Part shown: positions 10,452 to 28,079 of the stretch, one piece after another
Position numbering within the stretch: position 1 is the stretch's first letter
Layout of the letters: each line of letters opens with the position of its first letter
From: an uncultured virus (IMG/VR IMGVR_UViG_3300047510_001499)
Taxonomy: Duplodnaviria > Heunggongvirae > Uroviricota > Caudoviricetes
DNA: 64,000 nt
Reading direction: 5' to 3' (one strand)
Virus record (IMG/VR): IMGVR_UViG_3300047510_001499
The notes under the pieces: model-generated
Seen by the model: only the letters and a program-made list of their open reading frames with translations
What the model was told of the DNA's origin: nothing
The model's database searches: none
Made by a program: the position numbers and the translations under genes

Positions 10452-10675
10452 AACAGAGCAGTATTGAATGGATTTACAACAACCTTAAATCTCATTTTGA
10501 ACACGATGGTGATTTACTTGAGGCTGTTAAAATGAGCTTTGAACAAGCCAAAGCAATGCACAAGGATGAGATTGAGAATGCAGTTAAACAAGGTTGGGAT
10601 TACAATGAAGAAGGTCTTGTGCAATGGATGGGCGAAAAGTATTACAACGAAACCTTTAACGATAACGAGAAATGA
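10448..10675 (+). CDS. hypothetical phage protein (MKQ..IEW...FEQAKAMHK...YYNETF type)
   Basis: Flanked by junction repeats. Confidence 0.7.
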   Translation: MKQSSIEWIYNNLKSHFEHDGDLLEAVKMSFEQAKAMHKDEIENAVKQGWDYNEEGLVQWMGEKYYNETFNDNEK

Positions 10676-21041: not shown

Positions 21042-21778
21042 AATTAGATAAGGTATATATCATTACATTGGACCAATCGGATGAGAACCAAAAGTCTATT
21101 TTAGAAAGATTGGTTTTTATGGGTGTTCCAAATGAAACGACCTATATAATTTTTGATGGTGTAAATGGTCGTGAATTATTTTCTACCGAGCAAGGTCGTT
21201 TAGACTACGGAATTAAATTCTACGATGGTTGGAAGTTGAATGACTCAAATGATTTTTGGAATCGTGCAGTCACAACTGGCGAAGCTGGTGGTATGTGTTC
21301 CCATATTAAAGTGTGGGAAGACGCCTATACAAATGGATATGAAAATATTTTAATTCTTGAAGATGATTACAATCCCGAGCAACCATTTCCGTGGAGTGTA
21401 TGTGATGAGTTAGAAAACTACGAATACGATATTTTGTTTCTATCAAGAAAATTACAAAGTGGTCATTACGACATTGAAATTGGATTTGATAATTTTGTAG
21501 TTCCTGGTTACTCATATCAAACACATTCTTACATAGTATCCAAATCGGGACTGAAAAAATTAGTAGAAACGCATCTACCAACTCTAAAACAAAACATAGT
21601 AGTATCGGATGAGTTTTTACCTGCAACCTATACAACACACCCACGAGAAGACATTCGTAATATGTATCAACGAAATATCAGCGCTCTGGCTTATAGATAC
21701 AACCTCATAACACAATTACGATTTGAAGCTTTAGGAAATTCACTAACATCTCCTATTCAAGGAATAGATTATTATTAA
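21038..21778 (+). CDS. glycosyltransferase family 25
   Basis: VYIITL, FDGVNG, GEAGGMCSHIKVW, ILILEDD, YQTHSYIVS. Confidence 0.85.
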   Translation: MKLDKVYIITLDQSDENQKSILERLVFMGVPNETTYIIFDGVNGRELFSTEQGRLDYGIKFYDGWKLNDSNDFWNRAVTTGEAGGMCSHIKVWEDAYTNGYENILILEDDYNPEQPFPWSVCDELENYEYDILFLSRKLQSGHYDIEIGFDNFVVPGYSYQTHSYIVSKSGLKKLVETHLPTLKQNIVVSDEFLPATYTTHPREDIRNMYQRNISALAYRYNLITQLRFEALGNSLTSPIQGIDYY

Positions 21779-21780
21779 TT

Positions 21781-22101
21781 ATGACTGAACAAGAATTACA
21801 CAAGCTATTAGAAATCCAATACCTAAAGGGTCGTTTGGATGAACTACACAAAGCGTTTCCAACGGTGATTGATTTACATCGCTCTCGTAAATTAGATGCT
21901 CGTATTCAAAAATATTACGACAAACTCAAGAACACGGATGAAATGGCATATCACTTATATTTGGTGGAACGACACAACCAACAAGTGTCCAAAGAAAAAT
22001 CTCAAAAGCATATGAAAGACTTGTTGGAATCAATCATCCCACAATTGGGTGATATGGAACTGATAAATAAAATTAAAAAACAAATTGAAACTTATATTTA
22101 A
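21781..22101 (+). CDS. hypothetical protein
   Basis: ORF track. Confidence 0.7.
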   Translation: MTEQELHKLLEIQYLKGRLDELHKAFPTVIDLHRSRKLDARIQKYYDKLKNTDEMAYHLYLVERHNQQVSKEKSQKHMKDLLESIIPQLGDMELINKIKKQIETYI

Positions 22102-22107
22102 ATAAAA

Positions 22108-22139
22108 TTTGGCAATATCAAATTAGTTTCGTATATTTG
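22108..22139 (+). promoter_or_regulatory. promoter of the tRNA cluster
   Basis: TTTG 22108; TATATTTG 22132. Confidence 0.75.
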
Positions 22140-22152
22140 TATCAACAAAAAT

Positions 22153-22238
22153 GCCGATGTGGTGAAATAGGTAGACACAAGGGACTTAAAATCCCTCGCT
22201 CAGTAATGAGTGTGCCGGTTCAAGTCCGGCCATCGGTA
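22153..22238 (+). tRNA. tRNA-Leu(TAA)
   Basis: GCCGATG/CATCGGT acceptor; AGGGA-CTTAAAA-TCCCT; long variable arm. Confidence 0.95.
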
Positions 22239-22286
22239 CACGGAAACCCACATAGAGTTCTTTGATTTATTGGTTTTTAAAAAAAC

Positions 22287-22360
22287 GCCCCGATAGCTCA
22301 GCTGAATAGAGCAACGCACTTCTAATGCGTAGGTCGCAGGTTTGAATCCTGCTCGGGGTA
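22287..22360 (+). tRNA. tRNA-Arg(TCT)
   Basis: ACGCA-CTTCTAA-TGCGT; T-loop TTTGAAT. Confidence 0.93.
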
Positions 22361-22415
22361 CTCCCAGGCGTGTACAATCAACACCAAGGTTATGGTTGTC
22401 CTTTAACAACCAGTT

Positions 22416-22488
22416 AGGGAAGTAGCGCAGATGGTAGCGCACCGCATTTGGGATGCGGGGGTCGCAGGTTCAAGTCCTGTCTTCCCTA
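22416..22488 (+). tRNA. tRNA-Pro(TGG)
   Basis: CCGCA-TTTGGGA-TGCGG; AGGGAAG/CTTCCCT. Confidence 0.93.
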
Positions 22489-22580
22489 CAAACAGTACTT
22501 ACTACGCTACCCATAAGAACAGCGTCCCAGGGTAAGTCATTTACGAGGGTAGGTAGTTGCAAATGCCTATCCTCACTTAA

Positions 22581-22663
22581 TGGAAGGTGGGTGAGTGGTT
22601 AAAACCGGCAGACTGTAACTCTGCTCCCTTACGGGTACGGCGGTTCAAATCCGTCCCTTCCAA
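22581..22663 (+). tRNA. tRNA-Tyr(GTA)
   Basis: GCAGA-CTGTAAC-TCTGC; variable arm. Confidence 0.92.
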
Positions 22664-22674
22664 CTAAATAATAT

Positions 22675-22746
22675 GCTCCGTTAGTGAAGAGGTTATCACA
22701 CATCCCTTTCACGGATGAGTCAGGGGTTCAATTCCCCTACGGAGTA
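22675..22746 (+). tRNA. tRNA-Glu(TTC)
   Basis: CATCC-CTTTCAC-GGATG. Confidence 0.92.
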
Positions 22747-22787
22747 CAATGATTAAGTTTCTTTTACATACTTATTCACACAACAAC

Positions 22788-22874
22788 GGAGGTTTGGCAG
22801 AGTGGTTGAATGCGGCAGTCTTGAAAACTGTTTTACGAGAAATTGTAACCGGGGTTCAAATCCCTGAGCCTCCG
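22788..22874 (+). tRNA. tRNA-Ser(TGA)
   Basis: GCAGT-CTTGAAA-ACTGT; long variable arm; G73. Confidence 0.93.
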
Positions 22875-22886
22875 CTAAAAAAAAGA

Positions 22887-22918
22887 TTTGGCAATATGAA
22901 ATTTATTTCGTATATTTG
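22887..22918 (+). promoter_or_regulatory. promoter upstream of the tRNA-Gly-like element
   Basis: TTTG 22887; TATATTTG 22911. Confidence 0.75.
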
Positions 22919-22928
22919 TCAAACAATT

Positions 22929-23000
22929 GCGGAAAAAGACTTAAAAGAAAGTCGCTTATCATCCAGATAAGAGGAGTTGGGGCAGTTCCAACTTTCCGCT
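22929..23000 (+). tRNA. non-canonical tRNA-Gly(TCC)-like RNA
   Basis: Perfect cloverleaf stems GCGGAAA/TTTCCGC+T, GACT/AGTC, CTTAT-CATCCAG-ATAAG, GTTGG-GGCAGTT-CCAAC; lacks U8, D-loop GG, U33 and TTC. Confidence 0.75.
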
Positions 23001-23058
23001 CAAACAAGGATGTGTTCTTTGTCGTTTTATGTTTAACAATTTAATGTAAAGTTTTCGT

Positions 23059-23226
23059 ATGAAGAAAATCATTGCAATGTTCGCTATCGCAGCATCAGTT
23101 GCTGCTTGTAGTGAAGCTACTGAAGAAGTAGTAGTTGAAGAAACCACCGTAGACACTACGGCTGTTGTAGATTCTGCTGCTATTGAAGTAGAAGAAGTAG
23201 AAGGCGTAGAAGCTGCCGCTGAATAA
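23059..23226 (+). CDS. small acidic lipoprotein (55 aa; missed by ORF track)
   Basis: MKKIIAMFAIAASVAA-C-SEATEEVVVEETTVDTTAVVDSAAIEVEEVEGVEAAAE*. Confidence 0.8.
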   Translation: MKKIIAMFAIAASVAACSEATEEVVVEETTVDTTAVVDSAAIEVEEVEGVEAAAE

Positions 23227-23286
23227 TATAAAGAGCTGAGTCTAGCCGATGGGTTTTGATAGTTGAACCCTAATCAACTATCGTAA

Positions 23287-23359
23287 GCCTCCATAGCTCA
23301 GTTGGTAGAGCTACTGATTTGTAATCAGTAGGTCGCTGGTTCAAGTCCGGCTGGAGGCT
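23287..23359 (+). tRNA. tRNA-Thr(TGT)
   Basis: ACTGA-TTTGTAA-TCAGT. Confidence 0.95.
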
Positions 23360-23440
23360 CAAGGTATGAATTGAAGACAGTAATAAAACCGACTGCGGTG
23401 TTCTTTATGAACGAGTGTAACCGGATATTCATATCCCATT

Positions 23441-23514
23441 GGGGGTATAGCTCAGTTGGCTAGAGCATCTGCTTTGCACGCAGAGGGTCGGGGGTTCAAA
23501 TCCCTCTATCTCCA
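23441..23514 (+). tRNA. tRNA-Ala(TGC)
   Basis: TCTGC-TTTGCAC-GCAGA; G3:U70. Confidence 0.95.
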
Positions 23515-23605
23515 CCTTGCATGCCATGCGAAGGTTTCTTTGTTCCTTGGGAAAAACAAAGTGGAGCTACAGTGGCGGGTTGCTGTTGTCCCACAACAAC
23601 AGGGT

Positions 23606-23678
23606 GCGGTAATAGCTCAGTTGGTAGAGCATAACCTTGCCAAGGTTAGGGTCGCAGGTTCAAGTCCTGTTTACCGCT
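23606..23678 (+). tRNA. tRNA-Gly(GCC)
   Basis: TAACC-TTGCCAA-GGTTA; U73. Confidence 0.95.
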
Positions 23679-23798
23679 CAAGTAGACCTTTAAAAGGGCC
23701 CTTCCGTGTTACACGGCTTGTTGGGCCCGGGTCTACGACCTAATTAAATTTTAAAATAATAATTTAATAATTATTAACCGAACGATATCACTAAATTT

Positions 23799-23870
23799 TG
23801 CCCTATCGTCTAATTGGCAGGACATCTGATTTTGGTTCAGCGAATTGAGGTTCAAATCCTTGTGGGGCAA
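23799..23870 (+). tRNA. tRNA-Gln(TTG)
   Basis: CTGA-TTTTGGT-TCAG; TGCCCTA/TGGGGCA. Confidence 0.9.
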
Positions 23871-23889
23871 CAAATATTTACGGAGTTAT

Positions 23890-24390
23890 ATGAAGAACCT
23901 ATTAAATTGGTTTAAATTTTTACTACCTCAAAAGAAATTCAATCCATCTATCATTGAGGATTATAAATTGATTTTTGAGCATACTGAATATAAAAAACAT
24001 AGACTTTCCGGCTATACCGAATGGAAAGTTGAACGCAGCATTTTAAAATCCAATAAAGAATACAAATACGGATATTTTGAAATCCAAACTGATGGTGATG
24101 CTATTTTAGCATCAGATAGGATATTTGGTTTAAATATTTCGTTGAATAGTAATGGTTGGTTTTTCTTTTCAACTTTGGAACCTGAAATGAAGAAGGTTTG
24201 GAAACACCATAATAAAAACAAATCCGTTAAGTATGGATTGTTGTGGACTCCAAGCCGAATCATCGTTTTTATAAACGACACTATGTTATATGATACATCA
24301 GATATTGATATTGTTAAATATTATATTGAACCTATGAAGATAATCACATCCAAAGAATGTGAATATATAAAGGTATACCAAAAAAAATGA
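23890..24390 (+). CDS. degenerate GH16/ConA-fold-like protein
   Basis: KYGYFEI and YGLLWTPSRIIVFIND resemble GH16 strands; no ExDxxE catalytic motif. Confidence 0.5.
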   Translation: MKNLLNWFKFLLPQKKFNPSIIEDYKLIFEHTEYKKHRLSGYTEWKVERSILKSNKEYKYGYFEIQTDGDAILASDRIFGLNISLNSNGWFFFSTLEPEMKKVWKHHNKNKSVKYGLLWTPSRIIVFINDTMLYDTSDIDIVKYYIEPMKIITSKECEYIKVYQKK

Positions 24391-24413
24391 TATTTTGATT
24401 AAAAATAATTAAG

Positions 24414-24451
24414 AGGGGGCTTGTTTAAGTCCCCTTTTTTTATTATCTTTA
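24414..24451 (+). terminator. terminator hairpin overlapping the next promoter
   Basis: AGGGGGCTT-GTTT-AAGTCCCCT plus T-run; TATCTTTA 24444. Confidence 0.7.
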
Positions 24452-24470
24452 CATCGTAATAATTATTGAT

Positions 24471-24623
24471 ATGGCTAAGACATATAAAGACAAGTTGAAA
24501 TTCAATGGTGATTGGACTGTTGGTGAAGCAGCCCATCATATCGGTAAGAAGACTACTACCAAAACACACAAGTCCGAACGAATGTATAATCGGAAAAATA
24601 AATCGTGGAAGCAAGAAATTTAA
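24471..24623 (+). CDS. small basic protein (50 aa; missed by ORF track)
   Basis: MAKTYKDKLKFNGDWTVGEAAHHIGKKTTTKTHKSERMYNRKNKSWKQEI*. Confidence 0.65.
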   Translation: MAKTYKDKLKFNGDWTVGEAAHHIGKKTTTKTHKSERMYNRKNKSWKQEI

Positions 24624-24692: not shown

Positions 24693-26738
24693 ATGACTAA
24701 ATCAAAATCTTCTTACTCTTCGTTCTGGCTTGACAAGTCCCTATTCCTTGATGAGGACACTACCTATGTCACCGATATAGAACGAAAGTCCTCTGACCTT
24801 ATGAAATTGGTATCCTACAAACGTGCGGTATCCAACTTCGTTAATATTGTAACGGGTATGCCAATTAAGGTCACCTTTGATGAACGGGGTTCCGACTCTT
24901 ACACCGATGGTACGGAAGTAGTTATCTCCGCTAAGATGGATGATGCTGAATTTGACCCCACGGTGGGTCTGGCGCTTCACGAGGGTTCTCACATCAAACT
25001 TACTGACTTTGAGACTCTTCGTAAAATGGCTCGTGATAATTACTTTCCATCTACTATTGATGTGAACTATCTTCGTGAAAAGATGGGTCTTGAACTTGAG
25101 TCAAGTGTTTCATCCGCTATTTACGACCAACTGAAAGACCTGCTTAATGTGGTTGAGGACCGTAGGATTGATAACTACATCTTCCAAACCGCTCCGGGCT
25201 ATCGTGGTTACTACGAGTCAATGTACGATAAATACTTCAACGCCAAGATTATTGATAAAGGTCTTCAGTCTTCCGAGTATCGTGATGAGAATTGGGATTC
25301 TTACATTTTCCGAATTGCAAACATCACCAACGCAAATCGTGACCTTGACGCTTTGAAGGGTCTTCGTGAGATTTGGAACATCCTTGACCTTAAAAATATT
25401 GGTCGGTTGAAAACTACTTGGGATGCTCTTGAGGTTGCAGGTGCTGTGTTTATGGTTTACTTTAAAAATTACATTGAGGCTAAAGAACAAGGTCAAGGTG
25501 GTGGTGATAATCAGACCGAACCAAAAGAACACGAAATGAACGGACAAGCCGATATGAGTGGTGATATGGATGACCAATCATCGGAAGGCGGTATGTCTTC
25601 TAATATGGATATGAGTGGTGAACCTACCGATAGTGGTGATGAGACTGAAGTAGAACAACTCAGCCCATCTCAAGTTGAACAACTTAAACGGGCTATTGAA
25701 AAGCAGAAGAAGTTTCAAGAAGGTGAGGTCACTAAAAAGAAAATTGGTAAGAGTGAAAAGCGTAAGGTAGAAGCTCTTGACCGAGCTGATATTGATGTTG
25801 AGGTCACGGGTAAGGATATGACTCGTAAGTGGAATAGTTCCGCTTCGGGTGGAACCCAAACCTATGTGGTTCGTAACTTTAGTAAAGAGTTGATTTCTAC
25901 CAATCAGTTTCCAATTCTTACGGATTCTGTCTGGCGGACTGAACAAAATGTGAAAAACACCCAACGGGGTATTCAGTTGGGTATTCTCTTGGGTAAAAAA
26001 CTCAAGACTCGTAATGAAGAACGCTCTTTGATTACCCCTCGTATGAAGAGTGGTAAATTAAGTGCTCGTATGATTCACGAGATTGGGTTTGGTAACTTTG
26101 ATATCTTTGAACGAACGATGGTCAACAAATCCAAGCCCGCTGTGATTCACATCACTATTGACGCTAGTGGTTCAATGGGTGGTGATAAGTGGAACAACAC
26201 CCAAGTCGCAGCGGTTGCTATCGCTAAGGCGGCTTCAATGACCCAAAACATTGATGTGGTAATTTCTTACCGAAGTACAATGGGTTATGGTAGTGATTAT
26301 GTACCATTCATCTTGGTGGCTTATGATAGTCGTAAGGACAAGTTCTCTAAAATTCAGAACTTATTCCACCACATTACTCCAAACGGAACGACTCCTGAAG
26401 GTTTGTGTTTTGAGGCTGTGATGAAGGATATTATCGGATACGCTAAAGGTAGTGACGCTTACTTTATCAACTTTTCCGATGGATGTCCGACATTCTCAAA
26501 CAACGACATCTACTACGAAGGTCAAGATGCTTACAATCACACTGCCGCTCAAGTTAAGAAAATCCGCCAAGCCGGAATCAATGTCCTTTCTTACTTCATC
26601 ACCGAAGGTTACTACGGAACCGACGCACAGGCCTTCAAAACGATGTATGGTAAAGACGCTCAGTTCATCAATGTGACCGAGGTGGCTCCTCTTGCTAAAA
26701 CACTTAACTCAAAGTTTGAGGCAAATTTAACAATTTGA
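24693..26738 (+). CDS. VWA-domain protein with N-terminal HExxH domain (CobT-like partner of a MoxR-type ATPase)
   Basis: HEGSH...EDRRID; acidic linker; MIDAS DASGSM, TP, SDG. Confidence 0.85.
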   Translation: MTKSKSSYSSFWLDKSLFLDEDTTYVTDIERKSSDLMKLVSYKRAVSNFVNIVTGMPIKVTFDERGSDSYTDGTEVVISAKMDDAEFDPTVGLALHEGSHIKLTDFETLRKMARDNYFPSTIDVNYLREKMGLELESSVSSAIYDQLKDLLNVVEDRRIDNYIFQTAPGYRGYYESMYDKYFNAKIIDKGLQSSEYRDENWDSYIFRIANITNANRDLDALKGLREIWNILDLKNIGRLKTTWDALEVAGAVFMVYFKNYIEAKEQGQGGGDNQTEPKEHEMNGQADMSGDMDDQSSEGGMSSNMDMSGEPTDSGDETEVEQLSPSQVEQLKRAIEKQKKFQEGEVTKKKIGKSEKRKVEALDRADIDVEVTGKDMTRKWNSSASGGTQTYVVRNFSKELISTNQFPILTDSVWRTEQNVKNTQRGIQLGILLGKKLKTRNEERSLITPRMKSGKLSARMIHEIGFGNFDIFERTMVNKSKPAVIHITIDASGSMGGDKWNNTQVAAVAIAKAASMTQNIDVVISYRSTMGYGSDYVPFILVAYDSRKDKFSKIQNLFHHITPNGTTPEGLCFEAVMKDIIGYAKGSDAYFINFSDGCPTFSNNDIYYEGQDAYNHTAAQVKKIRQAGINVLSYFITEGYYGTDAQAFKTMYGKDAQFINVTEVAPLAKTLNSKFEANLTI

Positions 26739-26781
26739 TAACATTAGACGCTTGTATATTCCGAATAATTTCGTATCTTTG
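26727..26781 (+). promoter_or_regulatory. TTAACA box plus promoter
   Basis: TTAACAATTTGATAACATT; TATCTTTG 26774. Confidence 0.8.
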
Positions 26782-26807
26782 TTAAGTAATCAGTTAATCA
26801 CTCTTTT

Positions 26808-28079
26808 ATGAAAAACCAACGCTTTGTTTATGGTTCAGTTGTTGAGAAAAACGGAATCCTCCTTTTCTCTGATGTGGAAGGTAAATTGTATAATTTGCCA
26901 GAGTTAAATGAAAAGGGAAGTCCCCTTTACAAACGAGCCCGAGCGGCTGCTAACGCTCCTGGCAAGTGGGCTTTTAAAGTTCGTGTTGTTGGGACATTAA
27001 AGAGTGGTTCTTTGGGATTCACTCGTGTTGGGGTTGAGATGCTCGCTGGAGCTGAACCCGTGACCAACTTTGATAAACCAAATGGTGGTCTTGAATCTTA
27101 TCTTTACAATTCTAATCCTACTACCGAACCTATGGTAACTAATGTTCCTGAAGATGTCCTTAACTTTATTCACAATGAAGCCGAGGGTCTCAAACCCAAG
27201 ATGTTGTTTATGAACTCACTCAAGTGGAAATACTTGGTTCGTAACATCATCCGTGGTAAGAACATTATGATGACCGGCCCTGCTGGTTGTGGTAAGACTA
27301 TGGCTGCTAAGGCGGCTGCTAACTCCCTTGAGGGTTACAACACCTTCATCATCAACTTGGGTGCTACACAAGACCCACGAACGACCTTGATTGGTAATAC
27401 TCAATTTGATACCACGAAAGGTACGGTGTTTAACTCATCACCATTTGTTAAGGCGATTCAGACTCCCAACATGGTGATTGTGTTGGATGAGATTACTCGT
27501 GCTCACCCAGAGGCTTGGAACATTCTGATGACGGTACTTGACCAAGGTCAACGCTACCTACGATTGGATGAGGCTGCTGACGCTCCTGTGGTTCGTGTCG
27601 CTGATGGTGTATCGTTTATCGCTTCCGCTAACATCGGTAACGAGTACACCGCTACACGAATGCTTGACCGGGCTATCCTTGACCGATTCACTATCATTGA
27701 GATGGATACCTTGACCAAAGAAGAAGAGACCCAACTGCTTCAGATGATGTATCCTTCAGTTGAGGCTGAGTTGATTGCAAGTGTGGCTGAGATTACTTCA
27801 ATGACTCGTAACGAGGTCAAAGGTGATTCTCCCAAACTTACCAACTCACTATCTACACGGGCTGCTGTGGAGATTGGTTCACTTCTCTACGATGGGTTCT
27901 CTCTTGAAGAGGCTGCTGAAATTACCATCTACCCATTCTTTGAAGAAGCCGGTGGTGCTCAATCTGAACGAGTCTACATCAAGCAGTTCGTTCAAAAGTT
28001 TATCAAGACTACATCTACCGAAGATATCTTCAATGTGGATGTTGATGTGGAAACTTACGATTACTCTAATCCTTTCTAA
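26808..28079 (+). CDS. MoxR/CbbQ/CobS-type AAA+ ATPase
   Basis: GPAGCGKT, VLDEITRA, ASAN, LDRAILDRF, STR. Confidence 0.92.
   Translation: MKNQRFVYGSVVEKNGILLFSDVEGKLYNLPELNEKGSPLYKRARAAANAPGKWAFKVRVVGTLKSGSLGFTRVGVEMLAGAEPVTNFDKPNGGLESYLYNSNPTTEPMVTNVPEDVLNFIHNEAEGLKPKMLFMNSLKWKYLVRNIIRGKNIMMTGPAGCGKTMAAKAAANSLEGYNTFIINLGATQDPRTTLIGNTQFDTTKGTVFNSSPFVKAIQTPNMVIVLDEITRAHPEAWNILMTVLDQGQRYLRLDEAADAPVVRVADGVSFIASANIGNEYTATRMLDRAILDRFTIIEMDTLTKEEETQLLQMMYPSVEAELIASVAEITSMTRNEVKGDSPKLTNSLSTRAAVEIGSLLYDGFSLEEAAEITIYPFFEEAGGAQSERVYIKQFVQKFIKTTSTEDIFNVDVDVETYDYSNPF

What the first reader, a model, noticed from the sequence alone, without database searches (positions are those of the whole stretch)
22887..23000. 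Non-canonical tRNA-Gly(UCC)-like gene with its own promoter
Seen: a 72-nt cloverleaf with all four stems perfectly paired. It keeps the bacterial GlyRS identity set (G1-C72, C2-G71, G3-C70, U73, C35 C36) but has lost universal residues: A at 8, no GG in the D-loop, A at 33, T-loop GGCAGTT instead of TTC. Intact stems plus a dedicated promoter argue against random decay. Established: staphylococcal non-proteinogenic tRNA-Gly species also lose the GG/TPsiC features and supply glycine outside translation. Inference: a chargeable but non-ribosomal glycyl donor, or a decoy for host anticodon nucleases or tRNA sensors. A canonical Gly(GCC) is in the same cluster.
Basis: partly seen in the sequence, partly recalled or inferred. 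Interest (0 to 1): 0.78.

Follow-up and report, generated by a model that had tools for sequence, protein, structure and literature searches.

The report
Phage glycine-carrier tRNA mimic for Mom
This phage carries a tRNA-shaped RNA that keeps only what is needed to be loaded with glycine, and its relatives sit beside or travel with Mom enzymes, which use glycyl-tRNA to modify phage DNA, so it is most likely a private glycine carrier for that DNA modification.

Summary
Window 22929-23000 (+) is a perfectly paired 72-nt cloverleaf behind a Bacteroidetes-type promoter. ARAGORN and all Rfam models miss it.

It belongs to a large, virus-restricted RNA family with strong compensatory covariation: 99.6-99.8% of cells paired, and 13-14 of 23 pairs changed on both sides.

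The family keeps the GlyRS identity set (G1-C72, C2-G71, G3-C70, U73, C35, C36). It has given up U33, the 7-nt anticodon loop (32-38 is a Watson-Crick pair), G18G19 and T54-Psi55.

Mu Mom was shown in 2026 to transfer glycine from Gly-tRNAGly onto adenine in DNA.

- Eight of 9 near-complete genomes bearing the element carry 2-3 Mom genes. The ninth is a fragment of one that does.
- None of 4 complete relatives without the element has Mom.
- In small, unrelated phages the RNA abuts a Mom gene.
- In one Mom subfamily it follows the gene in 80 of 80 sampled loci. There the invariant bases are the GlyRS determinants, four T-arm positions and one linker A.

Best reading (about 0.7): a phage-encoded, non-translating glycyl carrier for Mom-type DNA hypermodification. 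Charging and use by Mom are inferred, not shown. I found no paper describing this.

The parts
22887..22918 (+). Promoter: -33 TTTG (22887-22890), 20-nt spacer, -7 TATATTTG (22911-22918). It ends 10 nt before the RNA.
   Evidence: the 32-nt pattern occurs twice in the window and 0 times in 100 shuffles. It matches the Bacteroidetes consensus (PMC2483708). It is conserved at the same distance in homologues. Activity is inferred.
22929..23000 (+). tRNA-Gly(UCC)-derived, non-canonical tRNA-like RNA. Acceptor 22929-22935 with 22993-22999; A8 at 22936; D arm 22938-22953; anticodon-like arm 22955-22971 (loop 22960-22966, C35 C36 at 22963-22964); variable region 22972-22975; T arm 22976-22992 (loop GGCAGUU 22981-22987); discriminator U73 at 23000.
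   Evidence: Model R1 scores it 94.5 bits and it is the only copy in the window. Model R2 scores it 52 bits. Covariation. Missed by ARAGORN and Rfam.
23004..23034 (+). Terminator-like hairpin (23004-23010 with 23016-23022) followed by a U-rich run (23025-23034).
   Evidence: -6 kcal/mol, z = -1.1, so weak on its own. By my reading of the printed flanks, a similar hairpin plus T-run follows the last copy in 5 of the 6 window-type loci read (window, L018, L023, L029, L049; not L030). Inferred.
22108..22139 (+). Twin copy of the same promoter, 14 nt before tRNA-Leu(UAA), the first gene of the tRNA cluster. Context only.
23606..23679 (+). Canonical tRNA-Gly(GCC) in the same cluster. Context only. 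[quoted passage not shown]
   Evidence: (71.5 bits).

Best explanation
The RNA is a phage-encoded, tRNA-Gly(UCC)-derived glycine carrier that no longer serves translation.

Proposed course, all steps inferred:
1. It is transcribed from its own promoter as a short unit.
2. It is trimmed like a tRNA, and host enzymes add CCA.
3. Host GlyRS loads it with glycine through the retained identity set (G1-C72, C2-G71, G3-C70, U73, C35, C36).
4. The Gly-RNA is the co-substrate of the phage's Mom-family GNAT enzymes. These transfer glycine to N6 of adenine in double-stranded phage DNA. The published chemistry for Mu Mom then rearranges this to 6-NcmdA, which protects DNA from restriction.

The remodelled elbow (A8-U14, no G18G19, T loop GGCAGUU), the unconstrained base 33 and the 32-38 pair would keep it off EF-Tu and the ribosome. 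DNA modification and protein synthesis would then not compete for one Gly-tRNA pool, as with the staphylococcal cell-wall tRNAs.

Shown here: the structure, its conservation pattern and the genomic link to Mom. Inferred: charging, exclusion from translation and use by Mom.
For: 1. It is a real RNA family.
- A 17-nt T-arm search of viral contigs gave 46 loci. Of these, 35 hold a full homologue, 1 a truncated one, and 10 are chance matches.
- On the 23 distinct sequences found by that anchor alone, 99.6% of 529 cells pair and 13 of 23 pairs change on both sides, with 0 of 500 shuffles as good.
- On 39 sequences the figures are 99.8% and 14 of 23.

2. The conservation matches GlyRS identity, not decoding (n = 39).
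- G1, C2, C35, C36, A37 and U73 are kept in 39 of 39; G3 in 37 of 39.
- Base 33 is A 22, U 16, G 1. Base 34 is U 29, A 10.
- The 32-38 pair is always Watson-Crick capable: CG 37, AU 1, UA 1.

3. Mom uses Gly-tRNAGly as glycyl donor for DNA. All three E. coli isoacceptors work and Gly-tRNAAla does not (PMC13219725: abstract, passages, Discussion).

4. Co-occurrence with Mom.
- Of 48 element-bearing records searched, 17 hold Mom. Among those at least 90% complete it is 8 of 9, with 2-3 genes each.
- The exception, G033, is 100% identical over 10,030 nt to Mom-bearing G029, so it is a fragment of the same phage.
- The nearest record to the window, G001, has three PF25680 proteins at 117-157 bits against a cut-off of 27.1.
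- Of 19 large relatives without a strong element hit, 0 of 4 complete ones have Mom. Two of those complete ones carry a canonical tRNA-Gly(UCC) instead.

5. Adjacency in unrelated phages.
- The element abuts a PF25680 Mom gene in L065/L091, L074/L106, L076, L130 and L132, where each of two Mom genes has its own copy; in L156 a partial copy lies 20 nt before a tblastn-identified Mom match that was not Pfam-scanned.
- In 760 kb around 80 Mom loci of one subfamily, all 5 hits with E below 0.001 lie within 273 nt of Mom.

6. In the Mom subfamily of L076 the RNA follows Mom on the same strand in 80 of 80 loci.
- For the 37 loci that model R1 found, the start lies -73 to +54 nt from the end of the Mom match.
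- Across 59 distinct sequences the invariant bases are G1 C2 G3, C70 G71 C72 U73 and C35 C36, plus G53, C61, A63 and C65 of the T arm and one A in the linker after the acceptor stem.
- 97.4% of cells pair and 16 of 20 pairs change on both sides.

7. The Mom profile matches Mu Mom structure 8BV8 at E = 3e-41. H58, Y59, D149 and Y159 are kept in 9 of 9 sequences; R111 and S124 in 8 of 9.
Against: - There is no expression, processing or charging data.
- The Mom genes are outside the window, about 110 kb away in G001. Linkage in the large phages is therefore co-occurrence among related genomes, not independent events.
- 11 of 39 sequences have a fully canonical-looking loop (CUUCCAG). G001 has no canonical tRNA-Gly(UCC) among its 10 tRNAs. 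Some decoding of GGA is therefore not excluded.
- The EF-Tu T-stem rule predicts only +0.6 kcal/mol relative to the phage's own tRNA-Gly(GCC), using the table in PMC3239215. That is not a clear weak binder.
- Most Mom loci of another subfamily (76 of 80) and phage Mu itself have no such RNA nearby. Mom does not need one in general.
- Model R2 was built from hits of R1, and the alignment is fitted to the model.
- The host's GlyRS type is unknown.
Confidence: 0.7

Rival explanations
1. It is an odd but working elongator tRNA-Gly(UCC) that reads GGA for the phage. Its elbow and anticodon loop changed to escape host tRNA-targeting defences. Mom, if it uses this RNA, does so only as it would any tRNA-Gly.
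For: - It lies in a tRNA cluster whose other members mostly read A-ending codons.
- G001 has no canonical tRNA-Gly(UCC).
- 11 of 39 loops are CUUCCAG, with U33.
- Intermediate forms score as tRNA: L035:1250-1321 at 46.7 bits and L006:1570-1641 at 39 bits.
- Mom-less relatives carry a canonical tRNA-Gly(UCC) in its place.
Against: - Base 33 is free: A 22, U 16, G 1, and C in one further homologue (L054).
- The 32-38 pair is always Watson-Crick capable. A34 occurs in 10 of 39.
- There is no G18G19 and no T54-Psi55.
- In the sister group most members have no D arm, and the bases flanking C35 C36 in the anticodon-like loop vary freely.
- Some phages have both a canonical tRNA-Gly(UCC) and this RNA: L093, L112 and L115.
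- This reading does not explain 80 of 80 adjacency to Mom.
Confidence: 0.1
2. It is a decoy or sponge for host defences that act on tRNA-Gly. Examples are toxSAS enzymes that pyrophosphorylate the CCA end after reading the acceptor stem, GNAT toxins that acetylate Gly-tRNAGly, and anticodon nucleases.
For: - The acceptor stem and C35 C36 of tRNA-Gly are kept while decoding features are lost.
- Defence toxins specific for tRNAGly exist: FaRel2 (PMC11559606, search listing and abstract only), and TacT, cited within PMC13219725.
Against: - No such toxin or antitoxin gene is linked to it in the loci examined.
- A decoy has no reason to be welded to the Mom gene in 80 of 80 loci or to co-occur with Mom in complete genomes.
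- The decoy idea predicts nothing about Mom.
Confidence: 0.08
3. It serves Mom in some way other than as glycyl donor. It could be a cis element that stabilises, terminates or regulates mom mRNA, or an RNA scaffold or activator of the enzyme.
For: - In the L076-type subfamily the RNA overlaps or abuts the 3' end of the Mom reading frame.
- In L065-type loci it overlaps the 5' end.
- Mu mom is known to be under RNA-level control by Com (annotation).
Against: - In the window it is a separate promoter-to-terminator unit about 110 kb from Mom.
- It occurs upstream, downstream or far away in different lineages.
- Apart from four T-arm positions and one linker A, what is invariant is the aminoacylation identity set, not a protein-binding or terminator motif.
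Confidence: 0.1

Closest known systems
Staphylococcal non-proteogenic tRNAGly (NP1-NP3), feeding the GNAT-fold Fem transferases FmhB/FemA/FemB
   Same: - Keeps the GlyRS identity determinants and the UCC anticodon.
[quoted passage not shown]
- Supplies glycine to a GNAT-fold aminoacyl-tRNA transferase outside the ribosome.
- The transferase competes with EF-Tu for the Gly-tRNA pool.
Source: PMC7826273, abstract and passages.
   Different: - It is virus-encoded and not of the staphylococcal lineage.
- The remodelling goes much further: A8-U14 swap, free base 33, paired 32-38, T loop GGCAGUU, and D-arm loss in the sister group.
- The partner is Mom and the acceptor is DNA, not peptidoglycan.
- Poor EF-Tu binding is not shown here.
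Phage Mu Mom and host Gly-tRNAGly (6-NcmdA 'momylation')
   Same: The partner enzymes are the same family (PF25680; profile against 8BV8 at E = 3e-41) with most catalytic residues kept. The published donor is glycyl-tRNAGly (PMC13219725).
   Different: Mu borrows host tRNAGly, and no RNA of this family lies within 1.5 kb upstream of its mom gene or in the 139 nt between it and the end of the record. [quoted passage not shown] Its main text has 0 occurrences of 'tRNA-like' or 'phage-encoded tRNA'. Two text-held supplementary files have 0 occurrences of 'tRNA-like', 'encoded tRNA' or 'tRNA gene'; a third file could not be read.
Ordinary phage-encoded tRNA genes in tRNA clusters
   Same: It has the same location, the same promoter type as the cluster's first gene, tRNA-like spacing and cloverleaf shape.
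   Different: It fails ARAGORN and Rfam RF00005. It lacks U8, G18G19, U33 and T54-Psi55.
Aminoacylatable tRNA-like structures of plant RNA viruses, and bacterial pseudo-tRNAs such as B. cereus tRNA-Other (both recalled, not checked here)
   Same: The concept is the same: a tRNA mimic charged by a host synthetase but not used for decoding.
   Different: Those are 3' ends of RNA genomes or chromosomal genes of unclear role. None is tied to a DNA-modifying enzyme.

Membership tests
Canonical elongator tRNA (Rfam RF00005 / ARAGORN) | Reaches the tRNA covariance-model gathering score (29 bits) or is called by a tRNA finder | tested here: not met
   No RF00005 match at E<=10 over 22929-23000, while 10 neighbours score 50-72 bits. 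ARAGORN does not call it nor its relatives.
Canonical elongator tRNA (Rfam RF00005 / ARAGORN) | Universal bases U8, G18G19, U33 and T54-Psi55-C56, and a 7-nt anticodon loop without a Watson-Crick 32-38 pair | tested here: not met
   The window has A8, a D loop UAAAAGAA, A33, T loop GGCAGUU (only C56 kept) and C32-G38. Family-wide, base 33 varies and 32-38 always pairs.
Canonical elongator tRNA (Rfam RF00005 / ARAGORN) | Cloverleaf with 7/4/5/5-bp stems | tested here: met
   All four stems are perfect in the window. They are supported by compensatory changes.
GlyRS substrate (tRNA-Gly identity) | G1-C72, C2-G71, G3-C70, U73, C35 and C36. The set is from PMC7826273. G3-C70 is recalled from E. 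coli work. | tested here: met
   All are present in the window. They are invariant or nearly so in 39 sequences. In 59 sequences of the sister group they are invariant, alongside only four T-arm positions and one linker A.
GlyRS substrate (tRNA-Gly identity) | Is actually glycylated | not testable with these tools
   This needs an aminoacylation assay.
Non-proteogenic tRNAGly (staphylococcal kind) | A GNAT-fold aminoacyl-tRNA transferase partner is encoded with it | tested here: met
   The partner is Mom (PF25680), not Fem.
Non-proteogenic tRNAGly (staphylococcal kind) | [quoted passage not shown] | tested here: inconclusive
   The T-stem rule gives +0.6 kcal/mol (G49-C65, U/G50-A/C64, U51-A63), against 0.0 for the window's tRNA-Gly(GCC), using the table in PMC3239215. 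The effect of the changed loops cannot be computed.
Non-proteogenic tRNAGly (staphylococcal kind) | Member of the staphylococcal NP lineage | tested here: not met
   It was found only in viral contigs. The pattern scan of 185,579 species genomes gave 3 chance matches. I therefore file it as working like that kind, not as a member of it.
Mom-type Gly-tRNA-dependent DNA modification system | A Mom-family enzyme with catalytic residues in the same genome | tested here: met
   This holds for the nearest record G001, not the window itself. It has three PF25680 proteins. H58, Y59, D149 and Y159 are kept in 9 of 9; R111 and S124 in 8 of 9; R151 is not kept. The window has no Mom.
Mom-type Gly-tRNA-dependent DNA modification system | Phage DNA carries 6-NcmdA, made with this RNA as donor | not testable with these tools
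   This needs nucleoside LC-MS and a reconstituted assay.

The most novel reading that the evidence does not exclude
Phages have evolved an orthogonal glycine channel. It is a minimal RNA, reduced in some lineages to an acceptor stem, one long hairpin showing C35 C36 and a T arm. Host GlyRS still charges it, but EF-Tu and the ribosome ignore it. It is the preferred or obligate co-substrate of their own Mom enzymes. This would be the first virus-encoded non-translational aminoacyl carrier and the first dedicated to modifying DNA. The D-arm-less forms would define the smallest natural substrate shared by GlyRS and Mom.
Probability: 0.5. Interest if true: 0.92.

Novelty: new variant of a known kind. 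Interest (0 to 1): 0.88.

Why it matters
Mom's donor was unknown for 40 years. It was published as host Gly-tRNAGly only in 2023-2026, and described as scavenging a host resource.

Many phages encoding their own stripped-down glycine carrier would change that picture. DNA hypermodification would then have its own tRNA-like cofactor, insulated from translation.

It would also be the second natural case, after the staphylococcal cell-wall tRNAs, of a tRNA lineage specialised for a GNAT-fold transferase. It would be the first such case in a virus.

The family is a natural experiment on what GlyRS needs, since little beyond the identity set is conserved. It is invisible to ARAGORN and to the Rfam tRNA model, so it goes unannotated. 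A cultured phage that carries it (Psychrobacter phage vB_PmaS_Y8A) makes the idea directly testable.

Tried and rejected
- **Chance or decayed pseudogene.** Rejected by the covariation.
- **Known RNA family.** No Rfam 15 match to the window copy, to relatives or to the Mom-adjacent forms.
- **5' leader of the 55-aa lipoprotein ORF downstream.** Rejected. A hairpin plus U-run separates them, and the RNA occurs in quite different contexts elsewhere.
- **Minus-strand gene.** Considered from the sequence alone. The mirror cloverleaf has no tRNA architecture, and every model hit with E below 0.3 at a Mom locus is on the Mom strand. One E = 0.34 and one E = 0.11 minus-strand hit were judged noise.
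- **Bacterial origin.** The pattern scan of genome contigs gave 3 matches, all chance hits in high-GC DNA with no tRNA-like flanks (my reading of the flanks).
- **Cultured relatives by blastn.** No match to the 80-nt query in 50,697 GenBank phage records. The cultured example came only through the Mom protein and model R2.
- **Neighbour-gene clustering within 5 kb**. This gave mostly replication and nucleotide-metabolism genes and no consistent partner. The Mom lead came from one divergent locus.
- **EF-Tu T-stem estimate.** Inconclusive.
- **G033 as a Mom-less exception.** Resolved as a fragment of the same phage as G029.
- **G065.** A weak phrog_1384 hit (E = 2e-4) lies beside a tRNA-Gly-like RNA, but Pfam did not confirm it as Mom. 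It is not counted.
- **The search for related loci with the 9-sequence Mom alignment.** It failed and was replaced by a 4-sequence alignment.
- **Complex prediction** was not used, because it takes no RNA.

Full report
**1. The observation**

Window 22929-23000 (+) reads as a 72-nt cloverleaf with every stem perfectly paired: 7, 4, 5 and 5 bp. It has A8, a D loop without GG, the loop C-A-U-C-C-A-G (A33, anticodon UCC), T loop GGCAGUU, G1-C72/C2-G71/G3-C70 and U73. C32 and G38 can pair, leaving a 5-nt loop. A8 faces U14, the reverse of the usual U8-A14.

ARAGORN lists 10 tRNAs in the window and not this one. A permissive Rfam scan (E<=10) of 21500-24500 gives the 10 tRNAs at 50-72 bits and nothing over the candidate. 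The fold is -24.9 kcal/mol against -14.2 +/- 3.2 for shuffles (z = -3.4, 0 of 200 as good).

The promoter is a 32-nt motif (TTTG, 20 nt, TATATTTG) that occurs exactly twice in the window. One copy lies before tRNA-Leu at the head of the cluster and one lies 10 nt before this RNA, with 0 expected in 100 shuffles. It fits the Bacteroidetes -33/-7 consensus (PMC2483708, passage). A weak hairpin plus U-run follows the RNA. On its own it is not significant, but by my reading of the flanks a similar hairpin follows the last copy in 5 of 6 window-type loci.

The window is viral. The nearest record, G001 (168 kb), is identical here and begins at window position 10643.

**2. It is a conserved family, not decay**

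A search of viral contigs for the 17-nt T arm gave 46 loci. Of these, 35 hold a full homologue, 1 a truncated one, and 10 are chance matches. The 23 distinct sequences found by that anchor alone align without gaps. In them, 99.6% of 529 cells pair and 13 of 23 pairs change on both sides. No shuffle of 500 reaches this, and slid controls pair at 35-51%.

I then added second copies found by a structure-filtered scan, so that set is biased towards pairing. This gives 39 sequences, 99.8% paired and 14 of 23 pairs compensatory. The 32-38 pair covaries (CG 37, AU 1, UA 1), and so does 8-14 (AU 36, UA 2, other 1).

Covariance model R1 finds 111 copies in 62 sources, and only one in the window (94.5 bits). 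Many phages have two copies 4-5 nt apart.

The strict pattern found nothing real in 185,579 species genomes: 3 matches, all chance. Blastn found nothing in 50,697 GenBank phages.

Intermediate forms tie the family to tRNA-Gly(UCC). L092:4763-4834 (the same place as L035:1250-1321) has canonical D and T loops (Rfam tRNA 46.7 bits). L006:1570-1641 is halfway (39 bits).

**3. What is conserved**

In the 39 sequences, G1, C2, C35, C36, A37 and U73 are invariant and G3 is kept in 37. Base 33 is A 22, U 16, G 1, and C in one further homologue (L054). Base 34 is U 29, A 10. These are the GlyRS determinants listed for S. aureus tRNAGly in PMC7826273; G3-C70 is recalled from E. coli work. What decoding needs is not kept: U33, an open 7-nt loop, and the G18G19 to T-loop elbow.

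**4. The partner**

Neighbour clustering within 5 kb gave no consistent partner. In one divergent locus (L091), however, the gene after the RNA is Mom-like (phrog_1384, E = 2e-39).

Mu Mom is a GNAT enzyme that transfers glycine from Gly-tRNAGly to N6 of adenine in dsDNA. An on-base rearrangement then gives 6-NcmdA. All three E. coli isoacceptors work and Gly-tRNAAla does not (PMC13219725: abstract, passages, Discussion and Methods section 38; preprint 10.1101/2023.03.24.534169, passages).

*Co-occurrence.* I searched 48 element-bearing records; 2 further ones were not held, and 11 near-duplicates and 1 chance locus were dropped beforehand.
- 17 of the 48 hold Mom. Among those at least 90% complete it is 8 of 9, with 2-3 genes each.
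- The exception, G033, is 100% identical over 10,030 nt to G029 (271 kb, two Mom genes). It ends short of where they lie.
- G001 has three PF25680 proteins (147.9, 157.3 and 117.3 bits; cut-off 27.1) in its replication module.
- The window itself has none (best tblastn E = 0.93).

*Control.* I took 19 large relatives found through a marker protein (57-62% identity). None has an R1 hit above 59 bits. None of the 4 complete ones has Mom. Two weak hits occur in fragments. Two of the complete ones carry a canonical tRNA-Gly(UCC). These genomes are related, so the counts are not independent events.

**5. Independent evidence: adjacency**

In small contigs of unrelated phages the RNA touches a Mom gene confirmed by Pfam at 117-171 bits:
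- upstream in L065/L091 and L130;
- downstream in L074/L106 and L076;
- before each of two Mom paralogues in L132.

A partial copy at the start of contig L156 lies 20 nt before a Mom match found by tblastn only.

In 80 loci (760 kb) sampled around Mom genes of the L125 type, R1 gives 5 hits with E below 0.001 in 4 loci. All lie within 273 nt of Mom. ARAGORN finds 5 tRNAs there, none for glycine.

In 80 loci (426 kb) around Mom genes of the L076 type, with GC from 40 to 71%:
- R1 finds the RNA in 37. Always on the Mom strand, it starts -73 to +54 nt from the end of the Mom match.
- A second model, R2, built from those hits finds it in 80 of 80, and two loci have two copies.
- R2 is specific. 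On the 760 kb of the other Mom set it returns only the same 4 hits.

Most members of this sister group have no D arm (65-67 nt). Across 59 distinct sequences, 97.4% of cells pair and 16 of 20 pairs are compensatory; this alignment is fitted to the model. The invariant bases are G1 C2 G3, C70 G71 C72 U73 and C35 C36, plus four T-arm positions and one A in the linker after the acceptor stem. The GlyRS set thus makes up 9 of the 14 invariant bases.

**6. Mom membership**

The profile of nine Mom-like proteins hits Mu Mom structure 8BV8 at E = 3e-41. I numbered residues from the paper's list. H58, Y59, D149 and Y159 are invariant, R111 and S124 are kept in 8 of 9, and R151 is not kept.

**7. Explanation and rivals**

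Best reading (0.7): a phage-encoded glycyl carrier, charged by host GlyRS and used by the phage's Mom enzymes, with translation features discarded. It parallels the staphylococcal NP tRNAGly that feed Fem transferases and avoid EF-Tu (PMC7826273).

Rivals:
- An odd decoding tRNA-Gly(UCC) (0.1). In its favour, 11 of 39 loops look canonical and G001 lacks a canonical Gly(UCC).
- A decoy for tRNAGly-directed toxins (0.08).
- Another Mom-linked role, such as a cis element (0.1).

The EF-Tu T-stem rule gives only +0.6 kcal/mol, so exclusion from EF-Tu is not supported by that measure. Most L125-type Mom loci and Mu itself have no such RNA. The carrier is therefore an accessory of some Mom lineages, not a requirement of the enzyme.

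**8. Novelty**

No Rfam family matches. Searches of the held literature found no paper that links a phage tRNA-like gene to Mom. The Mom paper's main text has 0 occurrences of 'tRNA-like' or 'phage-encoded tRNA'. Two text-held supplements have 0 occurrences of 'tRNA-like', 'encoded tRNA' or 'tRNA gene'; one supplement file could not be read.

A cultured phage carries the RNA unannotated. Psychrobacter phage vB_PmaS_Y8A has two tandem copies right after its Mom-like gene.

My earlier-findings look-up returned nothing.

Noticed in passing
window 23059-23226 (+): A 55-aa ORF with a lipoprotein-type signal (ending in a Cys) and an acidic tail lies inside the tRNA cluster, right after the RNA's terminator-like hairpin. 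Similar small ORFs follow the RNA in L018, L023, L029, L030 and L049. It has no PHROG hit.
   Followed up: partly
L006 (minus strand, between copies), L008, L023, L035, L049: Where two copies are not adjacent, they are separated by a 65-130-nt element. It has a closing helix and conserved inner words (UAAAG, GAUAA, CCG, ACCGGUUAU). It looks like a structured RNA and has no Rfam match at E<=1.
   Followed up: no
G001 120873-122455 (locus L303 873-2455): A glutamine-synthetase-like gene and a 2OG-Fe(II) oxygenase gene lie directly upstream of the tandem Mom genes. An N-terminally similar ORF, not scanned against Pfam, also precedes the Mom pair in L120 and L123. This may mean further elaboration of the modified base.
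   Followed up: no
G001 131868-133055 (L303 11868-13055); L070 5105-6274: A protein with a Druantia DruA domain (PF14236; 87.6 and 43.3 bits) is encoded in the phage replication module. It lies near the third Mom gene in G001 and next to a degenerate copy of the RNA in L070.
   Followed up: no
window 23517-23605: Close relatives (L029, L018, L008, L040, L030) carry a second copy of the RNA directly upstream of tRNA-Gly(GCC). The window instead has an unrelated 89-nt spacer after tRNA-Ala, and R1 finds no copy there.
   Followed up: partly
window 24693-28079 (+): A 681-aa protein (weak match to a PHROG labelled cobalamin biosynthesis) and an AAA ATPase (PHROG labelled porphyrin biosynthesis) follow the tRNA cluster. 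The 681-aa family is the commonest neighbour of the RNA, present in 39 of 62 loci.
   Followed up: no
L370 4283-4343 (-): A fluoride riboswitch (RF01734, 61.5 bits, above its gathering score) lies in a viral contig about 0.5 kb from the Mom and RNA pair.
   Followed up: no
G029, many places (e.g. 191799-191888, 169729-169825): Short dispersed repeats of 45-110 nt, 73-93% alike, recur across this 271-kb phage. They were seen as secondary matches of the 10-kb query. They may be promoters.
   Followed up: no
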